Under the pieces are notes generated by a model that saw nothing but the letters and a program-made list of their open reading frames with translations, had not been told where the DNA came from and made no database searches. From a virus (taxonomy: Duplodnaviria > Heunggongvirae > Uroviricota > Caudoviricetes), in IMG/VR virus record IMGVR_UViG_3300036768_001066: DNA of 64,000 bases. One strand, written 5' to 3'. Made by a program: the position numbers and the translations under genes. Position 1 is the stretch's first letter; each line of letters opens with the position of its first letter. This document shows, piece after piece, positions 20,837-43,523 of this stretch.

Positions 20837-21415
20837 CTATAGGGAAAAATTTTCGAGGAACATAAACGCGCACTGCCTGGCACTAAGACCGGCCGTTTCT
20901 ATGACCATGTCTGGGTCCTTTGGGACCTCGTACGGCGAGTCTATCCCGGTGAATCCCTTTATCTCACCCGCCCGGGCTTTTTTATACAGGCCTTTCGGGT
21001 CGCGGTCCTCGCACACGTCGAGCGAAGTGGACACGAATACCTCGAAGTAGTCCTTACCAATGATGCTGCGTACCATCTGACGGTCCGTCTCGTACGGGGA
21101 TATGAAGCAGGCGAATACTATTATGCCTGCGTCGTTGAACAATTTGCAAGTCTCGGCTATTCGCCGCAGGTTCTCCTTCCTGCCCTCGGGAGAGAACCCA
21201 AGCCCGGAGCACAGTCCCATTCTAACGTTGTCGCCGTCGAGTATGTACGTTGCGTAGCCACTCTCGTTAAGAGTCAACTCTATGTTGCTCGCTATTGTCG
21301 ATTTACCGGAACCGGAAAGTCCGGTAAACCAGATGGTCCTACCTCTCTGGTTGAGCACCATCTCCCGGTCCTCTCTCCTCACCAGGTGATTGTGTGGGTG
21401 AATGTTTTCTTTCAT
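20837..21415 (-). CDS. cysC: Adenylylsulfate (APS) kinase
   Basis: WFTGLSGSGKSTIA, LDGDNVRMGL, FISPY..DR, RDPKGLYKKARAGEIKGFTGIDSPYE match CysC nearly motif-for-motif. Confidence 0.85.
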   Translation of the reverse strand: MKENIHPHNHLVRREDREMVLNQRGRTIWFTGLSGSGKSTIASNIELTLNESGYATYILDGDNVRMGLCSGLGFSPEGRKENLRRIAETCKLFNDAGIIVFACFISPYETDRQMVRSIIGKDYFEVFVSTSLDVCEDRDPKGLYKKARAGEIKGFTGIDSPYEVPKDPDMVIETAGLSARQCAFMFLENFSL

Positions 21416-22540: not shown

Positions 22541-23365
22541 TTATCCGAAGTATTCATCATCTAAATCAAAGTGGTCCTCGTCTTCGTTCTTATTTGCGTC
22601 CTTGTCCTTCGGTGTTACGTCAGCCAGAGGGTTGACTGGCCTTGCTCCAGGATCGGTCAGGCGCGGTTTCTCCTCCTTCTTGTATTCGAACTTGGCGTCC
22701 TCGATAAGCTTGGTCTGTATGGTCTCCATGAGGTTCTTCGTGCCCCTTACCTTCACCGGTCCGTCAAGCTTGTCTATAGTTTCCTCCTGTGGTTTGGCAT
22801 TGCGCATCTCCTCAACCACAGTATTGTCGTGCTGCTGCTTCTTGTAACCCTCCTCGAGAGTTACCATGTATGCGGCCTGGTGCTTGATTGTCGACATCAA
22901 CTGATTGTTGAGCGTGGCGAGCGCCTCGAAATTTCTCGGGTGCGTGTTGCCCATGTCTATGTCCTCGAGCAGCTTTATCATGGCCAGCTGCGTGAACTTC
23001 AGGGAGAACATTATCGACGACAGCGCCATCTCGTCTATCTTCTTCTTGGCGAGAACGTAGTCGTTCTTCTTTATGTACTTCTGGTCAACGTAGAACTTCA
23101 TGACCGAGTTGAGCACCTTCTTAGCCTCCTTCTCCAGCTGCACGCGCTCGGCATGTATGTTCATGGGCTCGGAGTTCGGGTGGTCAATCTTGTCGAGCGT
23201 ACCGTCCGGATCTCCGTCAAGGTCCATACCCTTGACCTGCTTGACCGCGACCGAGTTCGGGTTGGCATTCGCCGGCGACTTGGGCGTGGTGTTGACCCCC
23301 ATGTTGTTCATGATGGCCTCAAGGTTCGCCTTGATCTTCTCCTGAACATCTTTCTCTTTACTCAT
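22541..23365 (-). CDS. Hypothetical acidic protein (274 aa)
   Basis: ORF track. Confidence 0.5.
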   Translation of the reverse strand: MSKEKDVQEKIKANLEAIMNNMGVNTTPKSPANANPNSVAVKQVKGMDLDGDPDGTLDKIDHPNSEPMNIHAERVQLEKEAKKVLNSVMKFYVDQKYIKKNDYVLAKKKIDEMALSSIMFSLKFTQLAMIKLLEDIDMGNTHPRNFEALATLNNQLMSTIKHQAAYMVTLEEGYKKQQHDNTVVEEMRNAKPQEETIDKLDGPVKVRGTKNLMETIQTKLIEDAKFEYKKEEKPRLTDPGARPVNPLADVTPKDKDANKNEDEDHFDLDDEYFG

Positions 23366-23856
23366 GGCTTCAATTTTATTAGTGTTTCGTGACCGTCCGC
23401 ATTCGTGAACCGCATCAAATCTATAGTAATTTTAGGCATACTGAATGCAAGATTACTGTACTTCCATCCTGTGCCTTTATTTATATATGCTATCGTCATG
23501 TGAGGATTATACTCATGGTCGATTGTGCATGGGAACTTCTTCTTTATCTTGTCGTGGTACGTGTGCAAAACCTTACAGTTAACGCCGAACTTCAGCACGT
23601 CGAACCTCGGGTCCGAGTCGAACAAACTGACCGGCAAGAACTCTATTTCTGTCTGCCTGCATATAGTATCCAGATACAGCATCATGTCGAGCGGATTCTC
23701 CACTTGGTGCACGCCGTATAGGACTGTTATGTGAGGATATAAGCTAAGCCCATGGTCACCGTCCGGATCGTAAACATCGTCTTGATCTACGTGCATTAGT
23801 ACCTCGGACCATCCCCTCAAGGGGACGTTTAACATAACACATCCATATTGTCTCAT
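23362..23856 (-). CDS. 2H phosphoesterase (LigT / cyclic phosphodiesterase / Acb1-like)
   Basis: Two H-x-T-x motifs: PHITVLYG and PHMTIAY. Confidence 0.65.
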   Translation of the reverse strand: MRQYGCVMLNVPLRGWSEVLMHVDQDDVYDPDGDHGLSLYPHITVLYGVHQVENPLDMMLYLDTICRQTEIEFLPVSLFDSDPRFDVLKFGVNCKVLHTYHDKIKKKFPCTIDHEYNPHMTIAYINKGTGWKYSNLAFSMPKITIDLMRFTNADGHETLIKLKP

Positions 23857-23956
23857 TATGATATGTTCCTTGCATTTTCAAGTATGTTAACAAGTTTCAT
23901 CAGAGGATATATCAAGAATATGTTCTTGATCGTCTCGAAGAATACTTTGGGTTCCT

Positions 23957-24573
23957 TCAGATCCTCGAATCTTGTCTTTCAGCTCCTCCGGAGCGAAGCT
24001 CTGTGCCTCGTTCATTGAGAATATCTGGAAAGTCATCATCCGTTTTATTTATATATCCATCTATGACGCTATTATTCTTATTGATATAGGTCTGGTACGA
24101 GCTGCCGAAAATTAACTTGCACATGAGGTTGTGCGCTATCGCGCGCAGCATCTTATCGTCCATCCGGTTGTCGTGCAGCTTAGGTGGTGGTTTCTTCGCC
24201 CAGTAGAACCCTTGTAGTCGGATAGGACGTACAGCAGACCTGCGTACTCAGGAACCTCCTCTACCTTGACCAGGCCCTCTGGAACGAGGTACGTGAAGTA
24301 GTTGGGTATGAGCACGTACGTTTCTGTTTCGTCGGTCTTCTTCCCGCGAACACATTTGCTGTATGTCTTTGTGGCTTTGCGCGCCAGTAGCAATTTGTGC
24401 TTGTGTTCTTTCTCGAAATCCTTCCTGAAGTCAGACCTGCTTATCTTTCGCACTCGGACAAGCCCTGACACGTGAAATTCGCTACTATCGGCGAATACCC
24501 CTTGAGGTACAGGTCCATCATGATGCTGGCCTGGATGTTCTTTGACTCTGGGGTAATAAAAAGCCCAGATCAT
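23957..24573 (-). pseudogene. Frameshifted/decayed gene region (ORFs 24136..24573 and 23957..24163 join after a 1-nt shift; region 24574..24800 fragmented)
   Basis: Reading ...LSDYKG then FYWAKKPPPKLHDNRMDDKMLRAIAHNL continues in another frame; no intact long ORF. Confidence 0.35.
24049..24058 (-). promoter_or_regulatory. Promoter-like motif GGATATATAA inside the decayed region upstream of the 2H phosphoesterase gene
   Basis: Same recurrent motif. Confidence 0.3.
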
Positions 24574-24810
24574 CTGGACTTCTATTTATCGTACGTACGT
24601 TTATGATTTTTATGATGGAGACATCCACGCCTCATTTTCGCGCGTATCATTCCAATGGGAGAGCTTGAATATGTTCGAGCCCATCTTGTAGATGCCGCCC
24701 TTTAGTACCTCTTTCCGTGACCTTTAAGTCGATGTCACAAATAGTTCTTTCATTGTGGAGGTCGGCCTTGGCTCTCCTATGGTTTGTTTTTTCATTGGCG
24801 TATTAAAAAT

Positions 24811-24833
24811 GGAGGGGGACTTCCACCCCCTCC
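24811..24833 (-). terminator. Rho-independent terminator
   Basis: GGAGGGGG-TGGAAGT-CCCCCTCC hairpin then ATTTTTAA on minus strand. Confidence 0.6.
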
Positions 24834-24841
24834 GTTATTAC

Positions 24842-25723
24842 TTAGTTAAGGATTTCAAGGATCTTGTTGGTCTCGCGCTCGATCTCCCCTGCGTCCAAGC
24901 TTCTCCAAAGCTCGGTGTAGCAGTTGAATACCTTCCAGCTGTCCAATGGAGTGTCCAGCGTTTCTTTGGTCATTTCATTGAAAGGTACTTTGATGCCTGT
25001 GATGAGCGCGTCCTCCTTGGTGCCGATTCTGTCGGTCTTCGAAGAGGCCATCTTGTCGACAAGCAACTTCCAAATGGTATCGTTGCCCTTCTTGCCGATT
25101 TTGTTTACCAACGAGTCGGACAACTCGCGCACCGTGATGGTTTTGCCACCAATGCTTTTTAAGCGCTTGATTGTTTTTGTAACGTCAAGCTTAGGCAATT
25201 GCAGCATGAACGCCTTCAATTCCTCGTTAACGTTATTAGTCGTCAGGTGTTTCACCCGGAACGATGATCCCTTGTAAGTCATCACCGCACCGTTAGAGCA
25301 CCACTGGCGCATCAATCCATAACGGATTGAAAGACGCTTTGTACCGTCGGTGCTGTTTGTCAACCACACCATCTCGTGGAACACGTCCCCGTTGATCTTG
25401 TGCGACTTGCCGCGAAGCTTAAGCTCCTGGTACCCGGCTTTAACCGTGATGTTGTAGAACTCAGGGTTGAATATGCCGTCAATAACCGACAGCAAAGTTT
25501 TTACCGCATCATTGAAGTCTACGATTTCGTAGATCTTGCTCGGGCGGAACTTAGATACGATGTTGCCCTTGTCGCGGGTAACGATTACTCCGCCTTCCTT
25601 CTTAACAGAGATCATCGCTGTTCTGTCGAGGATTGCCTTCTTATTGTAAGGCTCGTTGGCTGCTAATTTGCCGACTACTTTTTCGTGCGCTGGTGTCAAC
25701 GCTATTTCCATTGTTCTTGTCAT
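24842..25723 (-). CDS. Hypothetical protein (293 aa)
   Basis: ORF track; strong terminator hairpin just after stop. Confidence 0.55.
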   Translation of the reverse strand: MTRTMEIALTPAHEKVVGKLAANEPYNKKAILDRTAMISVKKEGGVIVTRDKGNIVSKFRPSKIYEIVDFNDAVKTLLSVIDGIFNPEFYNITVKAGYQELKLRGKSHKINGDVFHEMVWLTNSTDGTKRLSIRYGLMRQWCSNGAVMTYKGSSFRVKHLTTNNVNEELKAFMLQLPKLDVTKTIKRLKSIGGKTITVRELSDSLVNKIGKKGNDTIWKLLVDKMASSKTDRIGTKEDALITGIKVPFNEMTKETLDTPLDSWKVFNCYTELWRSLDAGEIERETNKILEILN

Positions 25724-25786
25724 GTTTTAATTGTTTTAATTGATTAACATAACAAAGATAGCAACTTCCTGGGAACTATAATACAA

Positions 25787-25954
25787 CTACCCGAAGAAAT
25801 TTCCAACATTTCTCAGGCAATAGTGTCCTATTATATGGGCTATCTGCTTGTGGAACCAGCAGCGCTTTATATTGAGATCCTCAGCCATCTTGTGAAGGTT
25901 CTCTATGCTGTACGACAACACCAGGTGTCTCTTGTTATCGCAGTAGAACTCCAT
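25787..25954 (-). CDS. Small conserved phage protein (55 aa; MEFYCDNKRHLVLSYSIENLHKMAEDLNIKRCWFHKQ...)
   Basis: Internal ATG of ORF 25787..26215, whose upstream part is an RS-rich artefact overlapping the next gene. Confidence 0.35.
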   Translation of the reverse strand: MEFYCDNKRHLVLSYSIENLHKMAEDLNIKRCWFHKQIAHIIGHYCLRNVGNFFG

Positions 25955-26033
25955 ATTCTGAAAATAAAAACCCCGCGATAGTGCGGGGGCTGCCGGTCGA
26001 TTTATGCATGACCTAAGCATGGAGGCATATATC

Positions 26034-26549
26034 CTACCTGAGCAGCATGTCAGCTGCGCAAGTCGAGGCCCATGCCCAAGGCTTGGCCTTGACGATGTAA
26101 CCCGAACCGGAGAAGAATCCAGTGGCGGCGTTGTACACCAGGTGCGAGCCCTCGTGCGGGTCCGGGTTGATGTCGACGTGGGTTTCGACCAACTTGTACC
26201 CCGGCTTACGTGCATACTCGTACACGCCAGACTTCGTCAGCTCTGTCTCGAGGTACTCGGCCACTTCAAATATACGCTCCACCTCGCCCCAGATCTTCAT
26301 GAATATCTCGTCTGGAGTCTGCAGCTTCTTAGGCGAACTCTTCTTGACCGAATCCTTGTAAAACAAAAAGTGCGCTCCCTTGCCCTCGTGGCGCAATAGA
26401 ACGACAGTACAGTACCTCAGGTACCATCCAGAATCGGCCGCGTCACAGCCTACCATTATTGTTACATCCTTGTGGAGAGATACGTAGTCCTTGACGTATG
26501 CTGCCAGATCCGGCACTTGCTCCTCTCCAAACTTCTTAAACACTTTCAT
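26034..26549 (-). CDS. Hypothetical protein (171 aa)
   Basis: ORF track. Confidence 0.5.
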   Translation of the reverse strand: MKVFKKFGEEQVPDLAAYVKDYVSLHKDVTIMVGCDAADSGWYLRYCTVVLLRHEGKGAHFLFYKDSVKKSSPKKLQTPDEIFMKIWGEVERIFEVAEYLETELTKSGVYEYARKPGYKLVETHVDINPDPHEGSHLVYNAATGFFSGSGYIVKAKPWAWASTCAADMLLR

Positions 26550-26776
26550 ATTCCTATGCTTGTTTTGGAGAGAAATTCGAGGGTCTCTCCTACCCTCTTA
26601 TATTCCTATCGGGTGTGACCGATAGATCGTGCGCCGCCCCCAGTGAGCGATACGCAATACGAAGTCGCGCGCAAAAACGCAGTCTACGCCACTTTGATTT
26701 GATAGCGCGCTCATATTGTTTTTTCGTCAACGATTCCATCCTGTATTCAGGTTCAAAGTTCATAATCTATTTATCT

Positions 26777-27088
26777 TTAGAACAACGTCGCAGGTAAACC
26801 TTTTTCGAGTTTATCCACGTATTTTTTTAAAATATCCCCATGACAAGCCTTGGGTTTGCACCAGCACACCAGGGTCTTTCCCTTCAGTTCGTGCAGGGAT
26901 TCCATCAGCGAGGGATTCGATAATAGGTACTTCTCGTACTTCTCGAGCGCTTCCTTCCTTGACGCAACCCTGAACTCGGCGAGCGTTCCCTCCCTGTGCG
27001 AATACGGGTTGCCAAATTTTGTAGGTCTCCCGATATACACAAAATTTGATTCGTCACCTTTATCTTTTATATTTATTACTTTACACAT
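26777..27088 (-). CDS. DUF4326-like protein
   Basis: VYIGRPTKFGNPY ... CWCKPKACHGDIL resembles the DUF4326 signature. Confidence 0.5.
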   Translation of the reverse strand: MCKVINIKDKGDESNFVYIGRPTKFGNPYSHREGTLAEFRVASRKEALEKYEKYLLSNPSLMESLHELKGKTLVCWCKPKACHGDILKKYVDKLEKGLPATLF

Positions 27089-27112
27089 ACGTACACTTAA
27101 ATCCTTGTAGAT

Positions 27113-28192
27113 TTACGAAAATTCTTCGCCTGTCTCCTTGTATTTCGGGTTAATCACCTTAACTTTCAGCCATGTCCCGTCCTTGGCCCTGCGCACCTCG
27201 TAAGGAGTTATTACAATGCCCTCCTTAATGTGCAGCTCCTGGCCGGACACCTTCTCGTTACCGAGCGCAAGCTTCTTGAGCTCCGGCACGTTCTCGTAAG
27301 GTCCGTCGTACAGAACAGGAACCCAATTCTTTCTGAAGTACTCCGGAAGCTGATCGTAAGGATATGTCTTTCCGTTTATCGTCACACCGAATATCTTCAT
27401 AGTCGGGTTGACGAAACCATACTTCATGGCCTGACAAGGAATACCCTCACCGAACACCTGCACCACCATCTCATCGCCGGAGCTGAGCCCGGCGAGGGCG
27501 GACAGATTGGGCAGCAAGTCCAGTATGTTGGAGAATAACCCTATATCGTTAACCGCCATCCAGTAGAAGTTGGTATCGCTCTCCACAAGGCACAAGCCCT
27601 CGGCGTTGTAGTTCTTGGTAGACACCCACTTTGCCTTAACCTGGTTGTCGTTGTGCACAGAGATGTATGCCACGAGCTGCGACCCGTGCAGCTTCTCCGT
27701 TATCACGACACGCTCCCCGTCCACGAAGTCAGCAGCGTAAACACCGAACTGTTCGACGTCGTGCTTTATCGAGAAGTTGTCGTACTCGATAGGAACCGCC
27801 ACGCCCTCCATCTCGGAAGGAACCCTCGGCACGTACTTGGTTATACCAAGAATCTCCGACAGGTCCTCGTCGTTAGGCAGCTCGCTTATGTGCTTACCGC
27901 ACTGCGCGAACACAAGCTCGTTAGGTATGATGATACCACAAGATAGCTCACCTCTCAAACGAATAGAACCAACCCTGTTCTTATCAGGACCGTGCAGGTA
28001 GTTCTTGTACTCCTTCTCAAGCTCACCGTTCAGGATGGACTTCTCGGGAGCGAATACCACGTCCTCACCACCGTTGTACAGTCCCTTCTGCACAACTACC
28101 TGGTATGTGCCAATCTTTCCGATTTGCAGTTTCGCCGCATCCGGGTGATCGAACACCTCAATCTTTGTCTTTATTACTTTCCAATTGCTCAT
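27113..28192 (-). CDS. ATP-dependent RNA ligase (Rnl2-like nucleotidyltransferase) with N-terminal extension
   Basis: Motif I VITEKLHGSQLV (KxHG, compare T4 Rnl2 EKIHGTNFS). Confidence 0.55.
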   Translation of the reverse strand: MSNWKVIKTKIEVFDHPDAAKLQIGKIGTYQVVVQKGLYNGGEDVVFAPEKSILNGELEKEYKNYLHGPDKNRVGSIRLRGELSCGIIIPNELVFAQCGKHISELPNDEDLSEILGITKYVPRVPSEMEGVAVPIEYDNFSIKHDVEQFGVYAADFVDGERVVITEKLHGSQLVAYISVHNDNQVKAKWVSTKNYNAEGLCLVESDTNFYWMAVNDIGLFSNILDLLPNLSALAGLSSGDEMVVQVFGEGIPCQAMKYGFVNPTMKIFGVTINGKTYPYDQLPEYFRKNWVPVLYDGPYENVPELKKLALGNEKVSGQELHIKEGIVITPYEVRRAKDGTWLKVKVINPKYKETGEEFS

Positions 28193-28424
28193 TGTTTACC
28201 TCCTTTTTAATATTGTAAATACCGTATTCTTTTTTCTCAACTTCAAATTCTGCCCGGCACCAATCGCAGCAAAGCTCACCCTTGTGTTCCTTTTCGTACT
28301 CCTCGTAAAAGAAATCGTCGTACTCGATGTTGTGTCCTCCACAACTCGGGCAGTCCCACTCGGCAGTCCCGAGCGCGCACTCCGGCAGGTCGCAGTGCTG
28401 TATGTAAACCATCTCTATATCCAT
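28158..28424 (-). CDS. Small zinc-ribbon protein (88 aa)
   Basis: CDLPEC...CPSCGG...CCDWC cysteine pairs. Confidence 0.45.
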   Translation of the reverse strand: MDIEMVYIQHCDLPECALGTAEWDCPSCGGHNIEYDDFFYEEYEKEHKGELCCDWCRAEFEVEKKEYGIYNIKKEVNNEQLESNKDKD

Positions 28425-28431
28425 AATACTT

Positions 28432-28848
28432 TTACACGTGGAGACCTCCGATGTTCCCCTTATACAGGTCCTTCATCGTAATCCGTTTCCCTGTGACGTG
28501 GTCGATGACGTAGCCGTCCTGGTCCCGGTAGGTCCTGCGCTTGTCGTTGCGCTCTCCGGTGCCTATCTGCGAGTTGCGGATGCCCTGGATCTTGCGGCCC
28601 TCCCCGTTGTCGTGGATGGCCCGCAGCTTGTCCTCCAGGCGTTCCCAGGCCGCGGCCTCGTTCTTCTCGCGCGTCCTGTGCTCCTCCGACCTGACCTGCA
28701 TGCTGGACGGAATATGCGTGAGCACGACGCAAGTCTCGACCTTGTTCACCTTTTGCCCGCCCTTGCCGCCAGACCTGCAGTACTTGCGGTCGACGTCGTT
28801 GCGGTTTAGCACGAAGTTTTGTTGTGGTTTATCGTCCATGACTGCCAC
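28432..28848 (-). CDS. Release-factor-like GGQ-domain protein (ArfB/RF-family peptidyl-tRNA hydrolase)
   Basis: SGGKGGQKVNKVETCVVLTHIP GGQ motif; C-terminal RTYRDQDGYVIDHVTGKRI like RF1/RF2 RTYNF..RVTDHR. Confidence 0.65.
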   Translation of the reverse strand: MAVMDDKPQQNFVLNRNDVDRKYCRSGGKGGQKVNKVETCVVLTHIPSSMQVRSEEHRTREKNEAAAWERLEDKLRAIHDNGEGRKIQGIRNSQIGTGERNDKRRTYRDQDGYVIDHVTGKRITMKDLYKGNIGGLHV

Positions 28849-29181
28849 CGTGACGATGCTCGTCTGGACCCTGCCTCTCTTCTCCGTAGGGGGTATTCGA
28901 GTCCAACGGTGAGAGCCAGATGGCGGCTTTGCGATAAATAGACGTCATTTCTTCTACAAGAAGTTTTGCATCATCTCTACCGGCCGCCGCACGTATCTCA
29001 AGAACTACCGATTCTTTTTTCATGGCTTTTTGTTTTTGTTATTCAATCACGCTGCCACTCGGCAGCACTGTTATCTGCATTTCTATACCGAGCTCACCCT
29101 GGTCGGTGACGAAGAACCGATCCTCCGTCTCAATCTTTATTATCTCCAGCTCCTTGAACTCCATACCGTAATAATTTTTGG

Positions 29182-29254
29182 AGCCGATGACAGGATTCGA
29201 ACCTGCGACTTTCGGTTTACGATACCGACGTTCTACCAGCTGAACTACATCGGC
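29182..29254 (-). tRNA. tRNA-Thr (anticodon CGT)
   Basis: Canonical cloverleaf: GCCGATG/CATCGGC acceptor, TTCGAAT T-loop, loop ATCGTAA. Confidence 0.7.
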
Positions 29255-29363
29255 AAGTTGGTGACCAGCCCCTATTTACGGACTTAAGGCGAGGACGCGC
29301 TCGGATATTTGCCAGGGAAGCATGCTCCCCTTCGGTCACCTCTTAATCTATTTATCTGGATAT

Positions 29364-29753
29364 TTATTCCACCGAGGTCTCAACCCTGTAGTTGAGCAGG
29401 CGGTTAAAACGTTCGTCCATGGAACCACGGTCCGTTTCCGTCGGGGGTATAAAAAGGTGGTCACCGTCGCTAACAGCGTCCTTGCGGAACGGGTTGGTTC
29501 CGATCATTGGGGACGGGTCCGGCTTGAAATCGTTGGCCCTACATTCCTTCTCCTTTGCCTTCACGAAATTAAAGAACTTGTCTATGGCCGCCACCGCCAC
29601 CACATCGCTCGTCATGCTGTCATTGCCGTAATTCTCTGTCACGAACTGATCCTTCAGCTCGCGTAGTCTCTTCATGTTCATTGTGTTCCTGCCTTTCCTG
29701 TCAATTTGTCCTTGAGCGTTCTTCATGTCTATAAGGTTAATTTCTATTCTCAT
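29364..29753 (-). CDS. Hypothetical protein (129 aa)
   Basis: ORF track. Confidence 0.45.
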   Translation of the reverse strand: MRIEINLIDMKNAQGQIDRKGRNTMNMKRLRELKDQFVTENYGNDSMTSDVVAVAAIDKFFNFVKAKEKECRANDFKPDPSPMIGTNPFRKDAVSDGDHLFIPPTETDRGSMDERFNRLLNYRVETSVE

Positions 29754-29989
29754 TCCACCTCCTCATATTTATCAACCAGTTCAACAATTTCATTACCATC
29801 TGTCAAAACAACATCAGGCAATGCTTTACCGTCTTCATCTATTGCAGGCCAAAATACATATCTATGTGGTACTTTTGGCTCATCTGTATAAGGGTGTTTT
29901 GTTGCAAGTCCACGATATTGAATGTAGCCATGTTTTGAATGGTTTACACCATAACCACGTTTCAAATTTTTTACTTTTATATTTTCCAT
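29750..29989 (-). CDS. Hypothetical protein; start placed at MENIKVKNLKRGYG
   Basis: ORF 29750..30043 with the more plausible internal start. Confidence 0.4.
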   Translation of the reverse strand: MENIKVKNLKRGYGVNHSKHGYIQYRGLATKHPYTDEPKVPHRYVFWPAIDEDGKALPDVVLTDGNEIVELVDKYEEVE

Positions 29990-30248
29990 ACGACAAAGAT
30001 ACGTATAAATATCGTAACAACCAAATTTTTTTACAACTACCACGAACCGCTAACAAAATTAGGGCTTAGGGCTGATAACTAAGCACTCAGCCTTTGTGCT
30101 ACTATTTTACTTCGGTGGTTGTATGAACATTAGAGCCTTGAATGCCCCAACTTCATAAACACCCGACCGTTATATTCCAGTTGCGAAAAGCAACCGAAAA
30201 TATAACACGGGCTAAGAAGAAATAAAAACAACCCAGCTCACCTGTGTA

Positions 30249-30446
30249 CTAAATAACTTCCGTCAAAATTCTCCACTCCTTTAGCATATTGCCATCAAAA
30301 GTTGCTTCAATCGGCACACCTTTTAATTTATCAACACTATCAACTTTTGCCTCCTTTAATAATTTTGATAGGTAACGCATAATCTCAGCGTATTGCTTAT
30401 CTCTGTCGGCTTCTGTCCATTTGCAATTTTTGTCCCACTTAATCAT
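30249..30446 (-). CDS. Hypothetical protein (65 aa)
   Basis: ORF track. Confidence 0.35.
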   Translation of the reverse strand: MIKWDKNCKWTEADRDKQYAEIMRYLSKLLKEAKVDSVDKLKGVPIEATFDGNMLKEWRILTEVI

Positions 30447-30701
30447 TTCGGCATCCCAAGCACATTTCCTCCGTGTCCAAAGGTTACGCTTTCAATTTTC
30501 CCTAATTTCTTTTCCATTGTCATTTAGTTTTTAAATTATAAATTCAGAAGCCTTCCCTTCTGTTGTTTTTACTTACTGACAGTAGCTCTCGTAGCGGGGC
30601 AATACCTGAGAATCCTATTAAAAACATATTTTTTCCTTTTTAGTTTTAGTTATCTGTAATCAAACAGTTACTGGCAATATACAAAATTTAGAACTAACTT
30701 G

Positions 30702-30784
30702 TAGCGCTGGCCGGACTCGAACCGGCGATGCGTTTCCGCGCCTCCTTATGAGGGAGGTCCAATACCATCTCTGGTCACAGCGCT
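30702..30784 (-). tRNA. tRNA-like, anticodon CAT, long variable arm, possible 8-bp acceptor
   Basis: Stem CCTCC/GGAGG, loop CTCATAA; variable CGCGGAAACGCATC; T-arm GCCGG TTCGAGT CCGGC. Confidence 0.45.
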
Positions 30785-31041
30785 AAGTCTTCCCTCACAA
30801 TTCTCTCGATCAGGTCAACGTCCAGCTCCTTGAGCACGGTCTCGTTGCCGTTCTCGTCAGTGGTCTTCGTCCTGCGCCAGATGCGGTCGCCGAGTTTCTG
30901 CCTGGTGACTATCCGGTACTGAGAGTGCGGTTCCGCCGGGAAGAGCGTAACACACAGAGAGCCGAGGCGAGTGTAGTGCACCCAGATCCTCCTGAAATTC
31001 ACGAGCCGCTCTCTGAGCTCGCGTTCTACGTTACATTCCAT
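30775..31041 (-). CDS. Hypothetical protein (88 aa) between tRNA genes
   Basis: ORF track. Confidence 0.35.
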   Translation of the reverse strand: MECNVERELRERLVNFRRIWVHYTRLGSLCVTLFPAEPHSQYRIVTRQKLGDRIWRRTKTTDENGNETVLKELDVDLIERIVREDLAL

Positions 31042-31054
31042 CGTTCATACATTT

Positions 31055-31145
31055 TGGTTGCCCCGGTGGGATTCGAACCCACGTTGGAAGTTACCTTCTC
31101 CGGATTAAGAGTCCGGTACTTTCGGCCAGCTAAGCGAACGGGGCA
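31055..31145 (-). tRNA. tRNA-like, anticodon CTT by loop CTCTTAA, long variable arm, CCA encoded
   Basis: Acceptor TGCCCCG/CGGGGCA, T-arm GTGGG TTCGAAT CCCAC, variable AGAAGGTAACTTCCAAC. Confidence 0.45.
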
Positions 31146-31157
31146 GTTTAAATTTTG

Positions 31158-31245
31158 TGCGCCCGGCAGGATTCGAACCTGCGATGGTGGTTACCCCACT
31201 CCACATTAAAAGTGTGGTGCTCTCGGCCAACTGAGCAACAGACGC
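31158..31245 (-). tRNA. tRNA-like, anticodon TTT, long variable arm (88 nt)
   Basis: D-arm GCTCAGTTGGCCGAGAGC, stem CCACA/TGTGG, loop CTTTTAA, variable AGTGGGGTAACCACCATC, T-arm GCAGG TTCGAAT CCTGC. Confidence 0.5.
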
Positions 31246-31269
31246 AAAATTTTACTTCGTTCTTATTTG

Positions 31270-31342
31270 TGCGCCCGTCTGGAGTCGAACCAGACCTGAA
31301 TGGTTAAAAGCCATTTGCCTACAACCGGTTTGCTACGAGCGC
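31270..31342 (-). tRNA. tRNA-Lys (anticodon TTT), 73 nt, weak D-stem
   Basis: Stem AATGG/CCATT, loop CTTTTAA, T-arm TCTGG TTCGACT CCAGA. Confidence 0.55.
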
Positions 31343-31491
31343 ATGATTGATGCCTCGCAGTCAGCAAGGCGTTACCGTTTATATTTTCGTTTCTGCTTCA
31401 TTTTCGTTTCTTAAATTTTTTGGCTCCCATGATTAACGACCTTTGGGTATTAGTATCCGAAACGGTCATGCGGATCTGCCATTATTTTTTG

Positions 31492-31573
31492 AGCCTGAGG
31501 AGGGATTCGAACCCCCGTTGTTTGAGTTCCTGCTTACAAGGCAGGCGCAGTCGACCACTGATGCCACTCAGGC
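31492..31573 (-). tRNA. tRNA-Thr (anticodon TGT) with extended 12-nt variable region
   Basis: Acceptor GCCTGAG/CTCAGGC, stem CCTGC/GCAGG, loop CTTGTAA. Confidence 0.55.
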
Positions 31574-31761
31574 AATTTACATTCTTCTCTTAATGCCCGT
31601 ATGCTCAAGATAAGTTGTTATCGAGAACTGTACAGACGGTTTAAATTTTCCGCCCATTATCTTGCAATAATAATCGGACATAGCGTTCAATTTATATTCG
31701 ACAGGTTTATCTATCTCGTATAGTTCGACCTGCCTCGTTTTTATCTCTCTTGTCTTCATCG

Positions 31762-31834
31762 AGCTACCGGCGGGGATCGAACCCGCGACCTCGTCCTTAC
31801 CAAGGACGTGTTCCACCGACTGAACTACAGCAGC
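31762..31834 (-). tRNA. tRNA-Thr (anticodon GGT)
   Basis: D-arm GTTCAGTCGGTGGAAC, stem CGTCC/GGACG, loop TTGGTAA, T-arm GCGGG TTCGATC CCCGC. Confidence 0.65.
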
Positions 31835-31924
31835 ATAATGAACAGGTGAAATATCGATGCAGTGTGAGATTCTGCTTCTTCTTTCATAGGACGATTGGCA
31901 TAACCCCAATCATCTTGTTCACTG

Positions 31925-31998
31925 AGCATGTAGTCGGGATCGAACCGACTCTGTTCCAGCTTGGAAGGCTGGCGCACCACCACTTATGCGTTACATGC
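31925..31998 (-). tRNA. tRNA-Gly (anticodon TCC)
   Basis: Acceptor GCATGTA/TACATGC, stem CCAGC/GCTGG, loop CTTCCAA. Confidence 0.6.
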
Positions 31999-32091
31999 AA
32001 AATACGTTCTCTCCACTTGCTACCTCCAACTGGTCCCAGGTTCAGCGGTTAAGAGTCAGGTACATCTCATAGTCACCCAGAGAGAACGTGG

Positions 32092-32178
32092 AGCGGGTAG
32101 TGAGATTCGAACTCACGATCTGACCTTATCTGACCAGCTTGGAAGGCTGGTGCGATGGACCAACTACGCGACACCCGC
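32092..32178 (-). tRNA. tRNA-like, anticodon TCC, long variable arm; anticodon arm identical to the canonical tRNA-Gly(TCC) next to it
   Basis: CCAGCCTTCCAAGCTGG followed by TCAGATAAGGTCAGATC, then T-arm GTGAG TTCGAAT CTCAC. Confidence 0.45.
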
Positions 32179-32264
32179 AAATATTTTAGACAGGGACTGA
32201 AGGGAATTTTCACCTTGGCTCCGGCGGCCTTTCGGTCTCACGATCTACATCAGTTTGTCCTTTG

Positions 32265-32336
32265 TAACGGAGGGCAGAATCGAACTGCCGGGGTCCAGGC
32301 TTATGAGACCAGAAGGTTACCAACAACCTCTCCGCA
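32265..32336 (-). tRNA. tRNA-like, probable anticodon CAT, irregular acceptor and anticodon stems
   Basis: T-arm GGCAG TTCGATT CTGCC; loop CTCATAA with a T-T mismatch in the stem. Confidence 0.35.
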
Positions 32337-32529
32337 ATGTTCAGCGGTTCTCCTGGACCCTATTACCAGGATTTACTTTGGATTGTCGAGTTCTAAATTT
32401 CTCAATAATGAACGACGACAACAGAACCACTTAATGTGGCGGACAAGTGAGATAATGACCTTGTGCGAGATTCGAGGTCCTCTCTCATTGGGTGATCGGT
32501 ATCGCAACCCCGACCATTCTTGTCCACTG

Positions 32530-32602
32530 AGCGGGGGACGGGATTCGAACCCGCGACCTTCACCTTGGCAAGGTGACGCTCTACCAACTGAGCTACTCCC
32601 GC
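32530..32602 (-). tRNA. tRNA-Gly (anticodon GCC)
   Basis: GCGGGAG TA GCTCAGTTGGTAGAGC, stem TCACC/GGTGA, loop TTGCCAA. Confidence 0.7.
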
Positions 32603-32716
32603 ATGAACACCGATTCCTGTCTTCCTCACTGCCTCGGTGTACCACAGCAGTGTCATTCCCTAATTGGAGCCGAGGGGCAGCCCGCCGGCTGTGCGTTCCC
32701 TTTCAACTCGGCATTT

Positions 32717-32797
32717 GTGCGGGAGGAGGACTCGAACCTCCGAGGCTTGCGCATAGGATCATGAGTCCTACCTGATACCATCTTCAGTCACCCCGCA
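32717..32797 (-). tRNA. tRNA-like, anticodon CAT, extended 12-nt variable region
   Basis: Stem TAGGA/TCCTA, loop CTCATGA, T-arm GGAGG TTCGAGT CCTCC. Confidence 0.45.
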
Positions 32798-32821
32798 ATA
32801 TTTTGGTCGCCAGACCTTTTG

Positions 32822-32893
32822 TGCACCCGGAAGGACTCGAACCTTCAACCTACCGGTTAAGAGCCGGGAGCTCTACCATTGAGCTACGGATGC
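32822..32893 (-). tRNA. tRNA-Lys (anticodon CTT)
   Basis: GCATCCG TA GCTCAATGGTAGAGC, loop CTCTTAA, T-arm GAAGG TTCGAGT CCTTC. Confidence 0.6.
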
Positions 32894-33156: not shown

Positions 33157-33897
33157 CTAAAATTTTTCCACAGACAGTTTATTTATCTCAAAGAGGTGCC
33201 CGTTGTTATGTATGTTCTTGAATTTGACACCGTCAAAAACAGACTTACCGAAGCTGCACACCGCAGCATTTATGAATGTTGTGTCGCAATGCTGTATATT
33301 CAGAGCGCCGCTATTTGGGCAGTTCTCCTCTGGGTGTATGTGACCGAACACGTGGTACCTCGGTTTTTTCCTGGCTATCGCGCGCAACATATCTTTGCAC
33401 CCGCACTGGAAGAATGACTGACCATCCGCGCCAGCCCTCGTGTCGTACTGCGTAAGGTCGAGTATTCCCTTGGGAGGGCCGTGCGTTATCAGTATGTCGA
33501 GACCTTCTGGAATATCGTCCCAATACGAGGAGATGCACCCGCGCGGCACATTGAATGCCCAGTCCTTCCCAAATTGCGGGGTGTACGGGCTGCCGAATAT
33601 CTTGAGTCCGCCGACCTCTGCGTATTCGTGCTCGAGATAAGTTATGGACTCATGTATGTCCCCTCTCGTGACGAGTCCCTTCTCTATGGACGTATCATGG
33701 TTGCCGGCAATAAGCACCTTGTACTTGATATGCGTGAGTGACTTGTACCACTCGAGGAAATCGCGTACCTCGTTGTTGTTGACGGCCGGTTCCTTCGAGT
33801 TGGACATGTCCCCGGCATGTATGGCCATATCAACCCCGTCTGGTATATCCAGAAACATGTGCTTGCAATGTGTGTCGCTTATGAACCAGACTTTCAT
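33157..33897 (-). CDS. Calcineurin-like metallophosphoesterase
   Basis: ISDTHCKH, HAGDM, GNHD, ITHGPP, GHIH motifs. Confidence 0.75.
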   Translation of the reverse strand: MKVWFISDTHCKHMFLDIPDGVDMAIHAGDMSNSKEPAVNNNEVRDFLEWYKSLTHIKYKVLIAGNHDTSIEKGLVTRGDIHESITYLEHEYAEVGGLKIFGSPYTPQFGKDWAFNVPRGCISSYWDDIPEGLDILITHGPPKGILDLTQYDTRAGADGQSFFQCGCKDMLRAIARKKPRYHVFGHIHPEENCPNSGALNIQHCDTTFINAAVCSFGKSVFDGVKFKNIHNNGHLFEINKLSVEKF

Positions 33898-42245: not shown

Positions 42246-43523
42246 TCATTTATCTCTCACTACCCTGTCACATTGCTGCAGCAGTTGGTTAAACTTTATA
42301 GCTTCGCGGCGTCTCTGCTCTTCGCCCATCTCCGGTCCTTCCTTCATACCTTCATCTAACAAAGATTGTCCGGTCACACTGAGTTTGTAAACGCTAAGTG
42401 CCAACGCGTTCGCATTACGGCGCTTCTCCTCTTTGGACATTACCCAATGTAAAAACACGGTAAGATCCGCGTCCGCCAGCTCGAGGCGTTCTCTGCGTTT
42501 AGCTATCGTAAACGCGAACGTATGAAGCTCGTCGGTAGCATGCTCAACATACTTGGCAGCATCGAGCAATAGCTCCACACCGTCCACAAACTTATTCGGT
42601 AATTTTATCTCCTCCTTCAGTTTACGGGTGAGCATCTGTCGGCTTGTATCAGATGCGTGGAACAGCGAAGCTACAAGTACCTCCGGAGTTCTTGTGTTAA
42701 TCCATTGCTCCGGATAGTAATACCCGGGCATGACTTGATAGAGTAGACCATATTCCTGCAACAATGTGAAGTACATCAACGGTGAGTTGAGTTGTTCGAA
42801 CGCCTTGAACATTTCTTCATTTATGCGCTCGCGAACAATAGGCACTGTATTACCATCTTTGTCTGGTCCTTCGAGTACCCGGCATTTCATAATGGCTTCG
42901 GCGGTATCCTCGTGTATCTTCATACCAAAGCGAAGCGCAAATCTGATGGCTCTCAGCACGCGCAATCTATCCTCGTTGAACCGGTCCACCGGGTTGCCTA
43001 CACAGCGCAATACTCTGTTCTCTACGTCTTCAACGCCGCCAACAAGGTCGATTATCTCGCACTTGTCGAGGTCGTAAAACAAAGCATTGATGGTGAAGTC
43101 GCGCCGCAGCACGTTCTCTTCGATTGTTGCGCCGAGCCTTACCTCTGGTTGACGCCCGACGGAGACGTCCTCGCGGAAAGTCGCTATCTCGTATCCCTTT
43201 GGACAGTCCTTGGTATAAACTCGTATCACCCCGAAACTCTTGCCCGTGTAATCCAAGCGGTAGTTGTCTTTGAGAAGTTCGGATATTTTTTCTGGCATGG
43301 CGTCTGTGGCCATGTCGTAGTCCTTGATGTTGGACCCGAGCAGGTGGTCACGGACACATCCCCCAACAACAAAGAGCTGGTGACCAGCGGCAGTCATAAT
43401 TTGGTGGATGTCCTTGATGTCCTGTGGAATATTCATAATGTAAAGATACGAATTTTTTATTGATATTGAACCCAGGAGATGCCTGTATCTCTCGATTAGC
43501 TCTTGCTCTTTATCTACATTCAA
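42246..43523 (-). CDS. cca: tRNA nucleotidyltransferase (CCA-adding enzyme)
   Basis: LFVVGGCVRDHLLG ... DYDMAT ... EIATFRED ... RRDFTINAL polymerase-beta head-domain motifs. Confidence 0.8.
   Translation of the reverse strand: MNVDKEQELIERYRHLLGSISIKNSYLYIMNIPQDIKDIHQIMTAAGHQLFVVGGCVRDHLLGSNIKDYDMATDAMPEKISELLKDNYRLDYTGKSFGVIRVYTKDCPKGYEIATFREDVSVGRQPEVRLGATIEENVLRRDFTINALFYDLDKCEIIDLVGGVEDVENRVLRCVGNPVDRFNEDRLRVLRAIRFALRFGMKIHEDTAEAIMKCRVLEGPDKDGNTVPIVRERINEEMFKAFEQLNSPLMYFTLLQEYGLLYQVMPGYYYPEQWINTRTPEVLVASLFHASDTSRQMLTRKLKEEIKLPNKFVDGVELLLDAAKYVEHATDELHTFAFTIAKRRERLELADADLTVFLHWVMSKEEKRRNANALALSVYKLSVTGQSLLDEGMKEGPEMGEEQRRREAIKFNQLLQQCDRVVRDK

What the first reader, a model, noticed from the sequence alone, without database searches (positions are those of the whole stretch)
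23362..29254. RNA and tRNA repair gene set near the tRNA arrays
An Rnl2-like RNA ligase (27113..28192) and a 2H phosphoesterase with two HxT motifs (23362..23856) are clustered here. A CCA-adding enzyme (42246..43523) and a second small ATP-dependent ligase (45774..46463) lie further along. With about 22 tRNA genes, mostly lacking encoded CCA, this looks like a complete end-healing and sealing kit. It would counter host anticodon nucleases or 3'-end-cleaving toxins in the manner of T4 Pnk/Rnl1, but with a different enzyme composition (LigT-type healing instead of Pnk).
Basis: partly seen in the sequence, partly recalled or inferred. Interest (0 to 1): 0.6.

Follow-up and report, generated by a model that had tools for sequence, protein, structure and literature searches.

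The report
Jumbo-phage RNA-ligase island, incomplete repair kit

Summary
All four enzymes are at the stated coordinates. The ligase (27113-28192) belongs to the Rnl5/DraRnl nick-sealing family, not Rnl2. The 2H protein (23362-23856) has two invariant HxT motifs and a confident 2H fold. Its subfamily is unresolved: the best sequence matches are phage Acb1, then LigT-like proteins. The CCA-adding enzyme and a minimal ATP-dependent ligase are real. 16 of 20 tRNA genes lack encoded CCA.

"Complete healing-and-sealing kit" is not supported. The window holds no polynucleotide 5'-kinase. Rnl5 enzymes need 3'-OH/5'-PO4 nicks in duplex RNA. The 2H gene lies 3.3 kb away, behind two terminator-like hairpins, and the closest relatives keep the ligase without it.

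The conserved unit is a tRNA array, an RF1-like gene, Rnl5, DUF4326 (a predicted phosphatase) and an RNaseH-like gene. Gene sets of this kind are already described for jumbo phages.

The RF1-like gene (29023-28432) is a deletion derivative split between two frames. In 84 classifiable loci of its family, 53 carry in-frame TGA/TAG and 27 need a +1 shift (26 at CTT-T-stop, as in prfB). I found no description of this in the papers searched.

The parts
28829..29023 (-). N-terminal 35 codons of a domain-1-less RF1-like gene ('VVLEIRAAAGRDDAKLLVEEMTSIYRKAAI'), followed by out-of-frame read-on
   Evidence: Three-frame translation. It aligns with the N-termini of the homologues. There is no Pfam hit for this fragment on its own.
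28432..28848 (-). RF-1 (GGQ) domain ORF, the C-terminal part of the same RF1-like gene. Its frame is open upstream to 'GSHRWTRIPPTEKRGR', which carries the PxT motif.
   Evidence: PF00472, E 6.7e-24. Best NCBIfam match is RF1 (90 bits), then RF2 (58) and PrfH (46). Relative to L107 and L002 it has a 33-codon deletion plus a frame change at 'GCC ATC T GGC', about position 28919.
28158..28424 (-). 88-aa Cys-rich (zinc-ribbon-like) ORF that overlaps the ligase start by 35 nt
   Evidence: The only homologues found are in L106 and L107. No family hit.
27113..28192 (-). [quoted passage not shown]
26777..27088 (-). DUF4326 protein, 24 nt downstream of the ligase. The literature predicts a phosphatase of the rhodanese-phosphatase superfamily.
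   Evidence: PF14216, E 6.6e-23. It is adjacent to the ligase in L003-5 and one to two ORFs downstream in L002 and L107. The functional prediction is from PMC9503650.
26034..26549 (-). RNaseH_like (PF04308/DUF458) protein
   Evidence: Homologues lie near the ligase or the RF gene in L001, L002, L024, L027, L028 and L107.
25971..25988 (-). Terminator-like GC hairpin followed by TTTTTATTTT, ending the RF-to-RNaseH-like unit
   Evidence: This is a consensus scan only.
24842..25723 (-). DUF932 protein, followed by a second terminator-like hairpin at 24811-24833
24136..24573 (-). 145-aa ORF of unknown function
23362..23856 (-). 2H phosphoesterase (HxT twice). Its stop overlaps the start of the next gene (22541-23365) by 4 nt.
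29179..32893 (-). tRNA array 1: 13 genes (Thr, Met, Lys, Gly), several with long variable arms
49344..52081 (-). tRNA array 2: 7 genes (Arg, Ser, Leu)
42246..43523 (-). Class II tRNA nucleotidyltransferase (CCA-adding type)
45774..46463 (-). Minimal ATP-dependent ligase (nucleotidyltransferase domain only); DNA or RNA substrate unknown
33157..33897 (-). Calcineurin-type metallophosphoesterase beside tRNA array 1; a possible 3'-end phosphoesterase
   Evidence: The role is inferred only.
20837..21415 (-). APS kinase, the only protein in the window with a kinase-type Walker A motif. It is not a polynucleotide kinase.

Best explanation
The stretch belongs to the accessory 'translation-maintenance and counter-defence' island of a phage of about 374 kb, lying between a tRNA array and the terminase genes.

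Its conserved core, read on the minus strand, is: tRNA array, RF1-like gene, small Zn-ribbon ORF, Rnl5 RNA ligase, DUF4326, RNaseH-like gene. In this window these genes are packed with gaps of -35 to 227 nt and end at a terminator-like hairpin.

Shown: the ligase is a full Rnl5-family member with the catalytic Lys, the motif III and IV Glu and the motif V Lys.

Inferred from characterised members: it adenylylates itself and seals 3'-OH/5'-PO4 nicks where the 3'-OH strand is base-paired RNA, for example breaks in tRNA stems, in rRNA, or at RNA-DNA junctions.

Inferred from the literature: DUF4326 may remove a terminal phosphate.

The 2H enzyme is a separately transcribed accessory gene with a patchy distribution. 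It belongs to a large phage-associated 2H clade. It either opens RNA 2',3'-cyclic phosphates or, like Acb1, destroys cyclic-oligonucleotide alarm signals.

The CCA-adding enzyme most simply matures the 16 phage tRNAs that lack encoded CCA. It could also rebuild clipped 3' ends.

The set lacks a 5'-kinase, so on its own it cannot repair PrrC- or colicin-type breaks (2',3'>P with 5'-OH).

The RF1-like copy in this phage is a deletion derivative and is probably non-functional, or reduced to a GGQ-only fragment.
For: - Ligase family and motifs. Biochemistry of Rnl5: PMC4408790, PMC7261155, PMC5397189.
- Gene order RF - ligase - DUF4326 - RNaseH-like recurs in relatives with 70-78% ligase identity: L002, L003-5, L107. 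It recurs without the ligase in L024, L027 and L028.
- Tight spacing and terminator-like hairpins.
- The RF gene follows a tRNA array in L002, L003, L024, L027 and L028.
- 2H fold and motifs.
- The 2H family lies beside ligases in some phages. In L011 and L017 it is next to Rnl5; in L017 it is fused to an RNase_T exonuclease. In L022 it sits with an AAA_33 kinase, a PF09414 ligase and a Metallophos protein.
- The surrounding island holds Metallophos, NADAR, NYN, two Nudix proteins, NAMPT, an NMNAT-like protein, PARP and ART-PolyVal.
- The same repertoire is described for jumbo phages in PMC7824862.
Against: - Nothing here shows a substrate. The physiological substrates of Rnl5 are unknown even for the characterised enzymes.
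- The phage clade has KxHG instead of KxDG in motif I and lacks the Arg149 equivalent. The profile alignment around motif III is ambiguous: it places Q245 opposite NgrRnl E227.
- More distant phages have quite different genes next to their Rnl5 ligase: HAD_SAK_2, Sir2, PhoH, ClpP and others. The 'core' is therefore clade-specific.
- Only 4 of 80 RF-family loci have an Rnl5-like ligase within 8 kb.
- A kinase could lie in the roughly 310 kb of the genome outside the window.
Confidence: 0.6

Rival explanations
1. This is a complete T4-like heal-and-seal kit. The 2H enzyme (LigT-type) heals the ends, the ligase seals tRNA halves left by anticodon nucleases, and the CCA enzyme repairs 3' ends.
For: All four enzyme types are present with intact motifs. 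The tRNA arrays are adjacent. The 2H family sits beside RNA ligases in L011, L017 and L022. The literature proposes 2H enzymes as the cyclic-phosphate openers for ATP-dependent ligases in jumbo phages.
Against: There is no 5'-kinase in the window. A 2H cyclic phosphodiesterase leaves a 2'-PO4, and no KptA/Tpt1 was detected. Rnl5 is a duplex-nick sealer, not a loop sealer. The 2H gene sits behind two terminator-like hairpins and is absent from the ligase loci L002, L003-5 and L107.
Confidence: 0.12
2. The 2H protein is not an RNA-repair enzyme. It is an Acb1-like phosphodiesterase that degrades host cyclic-oligonucleotide or 2'-5'-linked immune signals. Its nearness to the ligase only reflects a shared accessory island.
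For: The best sequence-profile matches among solved structures are two phage Acb1 proteins (9q2g, E 0.0026; 7t26, E 0.004), ahead of LigT-like proteins at 0.03-0.07. The 'YPDYxPH-T-aY' and 'H-T-xxY' motif flavours are shared with Acb1. The Pfam Acb1 model hits 46 of 65 multidomain family members. Fusion partners are GNAT, ART and Nudix, with no kinase or ligase. L019 carries the anti-defence gene Gad2 nearby. The window is rich in NAD+-salvage and ADP-ribose genes typical of counter-defence.
Against: All scores are weak. Pfam 2_5_RNA_ligase2 scores higher than Acb1 for the window protein (25.2 against 19.4 bits) and matches 49 of the 65 members. By fold, the top matches are Usb1 and LigT-like enzymes (TM 0.65-0.70), while Acb1 reaches only 0.46-0.52. 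The family is adjacent to ligases in 3 of 6 independent contexts. Two family members are fused to the PolyA_pol/CCA domain.
Confidence: 0.35
3. The Rnl5 ligase and the RNaseH-like protein act on RNA-DNA junctions, such as ribonucleotide patches or primers during phage DNA replication or repair. They do not act on tRNA or rRNA.
For: Rnl5 enzymes seal nicks with an RNA 3'-OH strand and a DNA 5'-PO4 strand. Loss of DraRnl sensitises Deinococcus to ionising radiation. The PF04308 RNaseH-like gene recurs near the ligase even in the distant locus L001.
Against: The function of PF04308 is unknown. The ligase sits next to tRNA arrays and an RF-like gene, not with the replication genes.
Confidence: 0.15
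4. RF1-like protein, Rnl5 and DUF4326 form a phage ribosome-rescue-plus-RNA-repair module analogous to bacterial PrfH-RtcB2.
For: The genes lie adjacent on the same strand in the window, L002, L003-5 and L107. The RF gene lies 2.7-4 kb from the ligase in L009 and L012. Precedent is PrfH-RtcB2 (PMC9304027; PMC6514570). L025 places the RF gene near NFACT-R, TROVE and NADAR genes.
Against: Only 4 of 80 RF-family loci have an Rnl5-like ligase within 8 kb. The protein scores as RF1 (about 177-181 bits), not PrfH (53-78 bits against a cut-off of 167). It keeps the RF1 PxT motif. The window's copy has lost 33 codons and is out of frame. RtcB joins 3'-P/5'-OH ends, whereas Rnl5 needs 3'-OH/5'-P.
Confidence: 0.1

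Closest known systems
Rnl5 family: Deinococcus radiodurans DraRnl and Naegleria gruberi NgrRnl
   Same: The domain order is the same: N-terminal OB domain plus nucleotidyltransferase domain, with nothing after motif V. The protein scores above the curated cut-off of the equivalog model TIGR02306. NgrRnl is the only solved relative. The Lys, Glu, Glu and Lys catalytic positions are present.
   Different: It is phage-encoded. Motif I is KLHG (Rnl2-like His) instead of KLDG. The Arg149 equivalent is Gln. Identity to NgrRnl is low (E 3e-7 for the single sequence). Its genomic partners (RF-like gene, DUF4326, tRNA array) are not described for the cellular enzymes.
T4 Pnkp + Rnl1 (and Rnl2) tRNA repair
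   Same: Phage-encoded RNA ligase next to phage tRNAs. The proposed purpose is to counter host attack on translation RNAs.
   Different: There is no Pnkp (kinase plus HAD phosphatase) in the window. The ligase is neither Rnl1 (a loop sealer) nor Rnl2 (which has a C-terminal domain). Healing activities are unassigned.
Jumbo-phage RNA-repair repertoires (Iyer et al. 2021, PMC7824862; Iyer et al. 2022, PMC9503650)
   Same: The same list of parts: tRNA arrays, ATP-dependent RNA ligases, 2H, calcineurin-like or HAD phosphatases, CCA-adding enzyme, NADAR, Nudix, NAD+ salvage genes, DUF4326.
   Different: Those surveys name Rnl1 and Rnl2 as the main ligase families, and PTH2 as the peptidyl-tRNA hydrolase. 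I found no mention of an RF1-like gene or its recoding.
E. coli LigT/ThpR and phage Acb1 (2H superfamily)
   Same: Two HxT motifs and the 2H fold.
   Different: The protein reaches neither Pfam gathering score. It belongs to a separate, large clade with 5975 cluster representatives. Its substrate is unknown.
prfB (RF2) programmed +1 frameshift; PrfH-RtcB2
   Same: In 26 of 27 frameshift-class loci the relatives of the window's RF-like gene carry CTT-T-stop, and most also carry a GGAGG-like tract 3 nt upstream. This is the same architecture as prfB. Like PrfH, the protein lacks domain 1.
   Different: The protein is RF1-like, with a PxT motif. The site lies at codon 35 or about 50 of a protein that has no domain 1. 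The stop is TAG in 10 of those loci, which has never been seen in prfB (PMC12421855). Many lineages use in-frame TGA read-through instead. The window's own copy has lost the site.

Membership tests
Rnl5 (DraRnl/NgrRnl) RNA ligases | Scores above the curated cut-off of the family's equivalog model | tested here: met
   TIGR02306: 234.2 bits against a cut-off of 151.15, covering model positions 3-339 of 341.
Rnl5 (DraRnl/NgrRnl) RNA ligases | N-terminal OB-like domain before the nucleotidyltransferase domain, and no C-terminal appendage | tested here: met
   PF21189 OB domain at residues 16-90 and PF09414 at residues 161-345 of 359. NgrRnl aligns from residue 14.
Rnl5 (DraRnl/NgrRnl) RNA ligases | Catalytic residues: motif I Lys, motif III Glu, motif IV Glu, motif V Lys | tested here: met
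   K167, E249, E324 and K345 are invariant in 26 sequences. Caveat: the profile alignment near motif III is ambiguous.
Rnl5 (DraRnl/NgrRnl) RNA ligases | Seals 3'-OH/5'-PO4 duplex nicks with an RNA 3'-OH strand | not testable with these tools
   This needs an enzyme assay.
Rnl2 (T4 Rnl2, kinetoplastid REL) | Nucleotidyltransferase domain followed by the Rnl2-specific C-terminal domain, with no N-terminal OB domain | tested here: not met
   The protein ends about 14 residues after motif V and has an N-terminal OB domain. No Rnl2 structure appears among the PDB sequence matches.
2H phosphoesterase superfamily | Two H-x-T/S motifs on a duplicated alpha+beta fold | tested here: met
   H42/T44 and H119/T121 are invariant. 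The model has pLDDT 90.4. Foldseek probability is 1.0 to 43 2H structures, with TM up to 0.70.
LigT/ThpR-type RNA 2',3'-cyclic phosphodiesterase | Sequence membership (PF13563 or PF02834 at gathering score) | tested here: inconclusive
   PF13563 scores 25.2 bits against a gathering score of 27, and PF02834 is not hit. Relatives such as the L017 protein reach 41.7 bits.
Acb1 anti-CBASS nucleases | Sequence membership (PF23474 at gathering score) | tested here: inconclusive
   19.4 bits against a gathering score of 27. The best PDB profile hits are Acb1, but only at E 0.003-0.004.
Acb1 anti-CBASS nucleases | Cleaves cyclic di- and tri-nucleotide signals | not testable with these tools
   This needs an enzyme assay.
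T4-type RNA healing-and-sealing system | Polynucleotide 5'-kinase | tested here: not met
   No Pnk or AAA_33-type kinase was found by Pfam between 19.8 and 53 kb. The Walker A scan of the whole window finds only the APS kinase as a kinase. The rest of the genome was not seen.
T4-type RNA healing-and-sealing system | 2',3'-phosphate-removing activity linked to the ligase | tested here: inconclusive
   The candidates are the 2H protein, DUF4326 (predicted phosphatase) and Metallophos. None has a proven activity.
Class II CCA-adding enzymes | Head-domain motifs A (GGxVRD..DxD), B (RRD) and D (EDxxR) | tested here: met
   GGCVRD54, DYD68, RRD140 and EDRLR184. PF01743, E 1.7e-32. The NCBIfam CCA and PcnB models both score about 170 bits, below their cut-offs, so CCA-adding versus A-adding is inferred from the CCA-less tRNAs.
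ATP-dependent polynucleotide ligases (small ligase, 45774-46463) | Nucleotidyltransferase motifs I, III, IIIa, IV and V | tested here: met
   KLDG39, VGEY, FDII, EGLV193 and LKFRK. PF01068 scores 32.5 bits, above the gathering score of 26.2. There is no OB domain and no PDB or PHROG match.
PrfH (RFH) release factors | Reaches the cut-off of the PrfH equivalog model | tested here: not met
   TIGR03072 scores 46-78 bits against a cut-off of 166.65. RF1 models score higher, at 90 bits for the window fragment and 176-181 bits for full-length relatives.
Class I release factor RF1 | Full four-domain protein including domain 1 | tested here: not met
   Relatives match RF1 profile positions about 103-332 of 347 only. 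The window copy additionally lacks 33 codons and is split between two frames.

The most novel reading that the evidence does not exclude
The broken gene at 29023-28432 is a relic of a widespread huge-phage family of domain-1-less RF1 homologues whose synthesis is gated by programmed recoding. Some lineages require read-through of one or two conserved in-frame UGA (sometimes UAG) codons. Others require a prfB-style +1 shift at CUU-U-GA/AG, preceded by a GGAGG-like tract. The factor would then be made only when release-factor activity in the infected cell is low. It would act together with neighbouring tRNA arrays, the CCA enzyme, NADAR and, in this clade, Rnl5 plus DUF4326, as a phage-run system for translation termination, rescue and repair. 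This would be the first RF1-type programmed frameshift, and the first use of TAG in such a motif.
Probability: 0.5. Interest if true: 0.75.

Novelty: new member of a known kind. Interest (0 to 1): 0.45.

Why it matters
As a repair kit, this adds one more jumbo phage to a pattern that is already described. It also corrects the expectation of which ligase family such phages use: Rnl5, whose natural substrates are still unknown. The phage context (tRNA array, RF-like gene, DUF4326) gives a testable hint about those substrates.

The 2H clade, with about 6000 cluster representatives, sits between LigT and Acb1. Deciding its substrate would say whether such genes should be read as RNA repair or as anti-signalling.

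The recoded RF1-like family, if confirmed, extends autoregulatory frameshifting beyond prfB. It would also give a natural sensor of cellular release-factor activity.

Tried and rejected
1. Megablast of 22500-29300 against GenBank phages gave no match. A protein search found only 'RNA ligase' annotations at 44% identity or less. The annotated Tunturi_5 neighbourhood was uninformative.
2. I considered whether the 81-91 nt tRNAs (Lys, Gly, Met, Thr) contain introns that would need a splicing ligase. Rejected: ARAGORN with intron search models them with long variable arms and no introns.
3. A possible second 2H enzyme at 49816-50292 (HVSV / HLTI motifs). hhalign probability to the 2H profile is 0.25%. 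There is no Pfam or NCBIfam hit. The single-sequence AlphaFold model is unusable at pLDDT 35.5. This stays inconclusive and is not counted.
4. In-frame TGA in RF homologues as genome-wide code 4. Rejected for L002, L003, L009 and L012. TGA ends 15-30% of other long ORFs there, coding coverage hardly rises under code 4, and the true Trp codons in the same gene are TGG. Database proteins that show 'W' at the site are TGA translated with code 4 by the gene caller.
5. The window's RF frame break as an assembly error. An independent assembly (L106) is 100% identical over 9080 bp.
6. A programmed +1 shift in the window's own copy. There is no slippery codon or stop at 'GCC ATC T GGC', and the 33 codons that carry the recoding sites are deleted. 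I judge it a degenerate copy.
7. PDB sequence searches for DUF4326 and ART-PolyVal found nothing useful.
8. A suppressor tRNA(UCA) near RF genes: none in 42 loci. Amber-suppressor-like tRNA(CUA) genes were found instead.

Full report
**What the window is.** Nearly all long ORFs lie on the minus strand, and GC content is 49%. The genes include terminase with inteins, tail sheath, clamp loader and thymidylate synthase. The exact ligase protein is on record on a 373,759-bp contig. Nothing in GenBank phages is close at the DNA level. This is a 64-kb piece of an uncultured jumbo phage.

**Checking the observation.**
- ORF 27113-28192 hits Pfam RNA_ligase and the PHA02142 OB domain.
- ORF 23362-23856 hits 2_5_RNA_ligase2 and Acb1, both just under threshold.
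- ORF 42246-43523 has the PolyA_pol head and RNA-binding domains and the GGCVRD, DYD, RRD and EDRLR motifs.
- ORF 45774-46463 is a 229-aa nucleotidyltransferase-only ligase with motifs I, III, IIIa, IV and V.
- ARAGORN finds 20 tRNA genes in two arrays, and Rfam supports 16 of them.
- Only four tRNA genes (Thr-cgt, Lys-ctt at 31055, Gly-tcc at 32089, Leu-caa) end in CCA. Most of the rest end in C followed by A-rich sequence.

**The ligase is Rnl5, not Rnl2.** It scores 234 bits on the equivalog model for the DRB0094 (DraRnl) family, against a cut-off of 151. The only solved relatives are Naegleria NgrRnl structures. The single sequence gives E 3e-7, aligned from the N-terminal OB domain through motif I. 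A 26-sequence profile gives E 1e-17. K167, E249, E324 and K345 are invariant in the alignment. The protein stops shortly after motif V.

Characterised Rnl5 enzymes seal 3'-OH/5'-PO4 nicks in duplexes whose 3'-OH strand is RNA, and they are feeble on single strands. The loop-sealing enzymes are Rnl1 and Rnl4 (PMC4408790). K170, E227, E312 and K326 are essential in NgrRnl, whereas D172 is dispensable (PMC7261155). That makes the phage clade's KLHG motif unproblematic.

**The 2H protein is real but its subfamily is open.** Both HxT motifs are invariant. The model is confident, at pLDDT 90.4. Foldseek matches only 2H enzymes: Usb1 (TM 0.70), archaeal LigT-like proteins, poxvirus cGAMP phosphodiesterase, Deinococcus CPDase, rotavirus VP3, AKAP18, E. 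coli LigT and phage Acb1. A family profile finds Acb1 first among solved structures (E 0.0026 and 0.004), then LigT-like proteins (E 0.03-0.07).

The clade is large, with 5975 cluster representatives at E up to 0.001. Among 65 multidomain members the recognisable fusion partners are GNAT (4), DUF5661 (3), PolyA_pol (2), ART-PolyVal (2), another ART (1) and Nudix (1). None is a kinase or ligase.

Genomic contexts are split.
- In L011 and L017 the gene lies next to an Rnl5 ligase, and in L017 it is fused to an RNase_T exonuclease.
- In L022 it sits beside an AAA_33 kinase, a PF09414 ligase and a Metallophos protein.
- In L019, L020, L021 and L024 no ligase is nearby.

**Operon structure and conservation.** On the minus strand the RF fragment, the Zn-ribbon ORF, the ligase and DUF4326 are separated by 7, -35 and 24 nt. 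The RNaseH-like gene follows after 227 nt. A GC hairpin with a T-run (25988-25971) follows it, and a second one (24833-24811) follows DUF932. The 2H gene lies beyond both and overlaps the next gene by 4 nt.

Relatives with 70-78% ligase identity keep RF - ligase - DUF4326, with or without the RNaseH-like gene, upstream of terminase. They have no 2H gene there: L002, L003-5, L107, confirmed by tblastn and HMM searches. L024 keeps RF - RNaseH-like - 2H and lacks the ligase. The island is therefore mosaic, and the ligase-DUF4326 pair is its tightest unit in this clade. The literature proposes that DUF4326 is a rhodanese-phosphatase-superfamily domain acting on terminal ribose phosphates (PMC9503650). 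I did not test that.

**What is missing.** PrrC-, RloC- or colicin-type breaks leave 2',3'>P and 5'-OH ends. Repair by an ATP-dependent ligase then needs a 5'-kinase and removal of the 3' or 2' phosphate.
- Pfam scans of all ORFs between 19.8 and 53 kb show no polynucleotide kinase.
- A Walker A scan of the whole window finds only one kinase, an APS kinase scoring 252 bits on the CysC model.
- No KptA, RtcB or HAD_SAK_2 was detected in the window, although HAD_SAK_2 occurs near the ligase in L002 and L008.

'Complete kit' is therefore not supported within the window. The remaining 310 kb of the genome were not available.

**The RF-like gene.** ORF 28432-28848 is an RF-1/GGQ domain. ORF 28829-29023 begins with the RF domain-2 start 'LEIRAAAG'. 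The two lie in different frames. Homologues in L002, L003, L009, L012, L024 and L107 are single 226-228-codon genes lacking domain 1. They are closest to RF1 (176-181 bits), with lower scores for RF2 (90-126) and PrfH (53-78, below its cut-off), and they keep PxT and GGQ.

They contain in-frame TGA at one or two conserved places and end in TAA. TGA is an ordinary stop elsewhere in those loci. Trp codons in the same gene are TGG.

The window's copy has lost the 33 codons that carry these sites and needs a +1 shift at a non-slippery 'GCC ATC T GGC'. An independent assembly is identical. I read it as a degenerate copy, or at most a GGQ-only product.

**The family-wide pattern (followed up only partly).** 282 IMG/VR contigs encode relatives. 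I examined the best 80 plus seven other loci. Three could not be classified, leaving 84:
- 4 are uninterrupted.
- 53 have one or two in-frame stops, mostly TGA, and TAG in five.
- 27 require a +1 shift. In 26 of them the site is CTT-T-GA (16) or CTT-T-AG (10). In 22 it lies 3 nt after a GGAGG- or GGGGG-like tract.

Clustered at 80% identity, this is 22 frameshift clusters, 20 one-stop clusters, 12 two-stop clusters, 3 intact clusters and 1 mixed cluster.

A recent survey of more than 12,000 bacterial genomes reports no programmed frameshift in prfA and no TAG in the prfB motif (PMC12421855). The release-factor review and the jumbo-phage survey do not mention phage RF homologues of this kind. 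GenBank copies sit in unannotated huge-phage records.

Only 4 of the 80 loci have an Rnl5-like ligase within 8 kb. 17 have a CCA enzyme and 13 have a NADAR protein.

**Mechanism and verdict.**
- Shown: the identities and catalytic motifs of the ligase, the 2H protein, the CCA enzyme and the small ligase; the gene order and its conservation; and the absence of a kinase in the window.
- Inferred: the ligase seals 3'-OH/5'-PO4 nicks in base-paired RNA. DUF4326 and/or Metallophos may trim phosphates. The CCA enzyme matures the CCA-less phage tRNAs.
- Undecided: whether the 2H enzyme opens RNA cyclic phosphates or degrades immune signals.

This is a new member of a known kind of jumbo-phage gene set, not a self-sufficient T4-like repair pathway. 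The recoded RF1-like family is the part that deserves a study of its own.

Noticed in passing
window 28432-29023 (-); relatives L002, L003, L009, L012, L023, L024, L026-L105, L107: Huge-phage family of about 226-aa RF1-like proteins that lack domain 1. In 84 classifiable loci, 53 have 1-2 conserved in-frame stops (TGA, sometimes TAG), 27 need a +1 shift (26 of them at CTT-T-GA/AG, most after a GGAGG-like tract, as in prfB), and 4 are intact. The window's copy is a 33-codon deletion derivative split between two frames.
   Followed up: partly
L039, L045, L046, L050, L052, L054, L055, L059, L060, L061 (about 1-4 kb downstream of the RF-like gene): tRNA genes with anticodon CTA (amber-suppressor type, labelled 'Pyl' by ARAGORN) lie close to RF1-like genes that carry two in-frame TGA codons. 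No tRNA(TCA) was seen in 42 loci. The genetic code of these phages was not examined.
   Followed up: no
window 30701-30784, 31055-31145, 31157-31245, 31491-31573, 32089-32178, 32717-32797 (-): tRNA-Met, Lys, Thr and Gly genes of 81-91 nt with long, class-II-like variable arms, which is unusual for these amino acids. Similar long Lys, Met and Gly tRNAs occur in L002, L024, L027 and L028. They are not introns according to ARAGORN -i.
   Followed up: partly
window 33157-45215 (-): Dense NAD+/ADP-ribose gene set: Metallophos, NADAR, NYN, Nudix (twice), NAMPT, an NMNAT-like cytidylyltransferase and a PARP catalytic-domain protein of 427 aa. ART-PolyVal lies at 21680-22429. This looks like NAD+ salvage plus processing of ADP-ribose signals.
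   Followed up: no
window 20837-21415 (-): A full-length adenylyl-sulfate (APS) kinase (252 bits on the CysC model) sits between the terminase gene and ART-PolyVal. This is unexpected in a phage, and no homologue was found in any related locus.
   Followed up: no
window 15979-20806 (-): The large terminase appears as two ORFs (336 aa and 1276 aa). The longer one carries intein- or homing-endonuclease-like insertions, and relatives show LAGLIDADG/Hom_end hits in their terminase.
   Followed up: no
window 49816-50292 (-): 158-aa ORF inside tRNA array 2 with two HxS/T-like motifs (AHVSV, LHLTI). It matches phrog_12204 (unknown function). No detectable similarity to the 2H profile, and the single-sequence model is unusable.
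   Followed up: partly
L017 8110-9435 (-); L011 8890-9435 (-): In a distant phage clade the same 2H domain is fused to an RNase_T (DEDD) 3'-5' exonuclease. It sits divergently next to the Rnl5 ligase.
   Followed up: partly
L025 4472-13244: An uninterrupted RF1-like gene lies in a neighbourhood with NADAR, VWA, an NFACT-R_1 (ribosome quality control-type) domain protein and a TROVE/Ro60-like protein.
   Followed up: no
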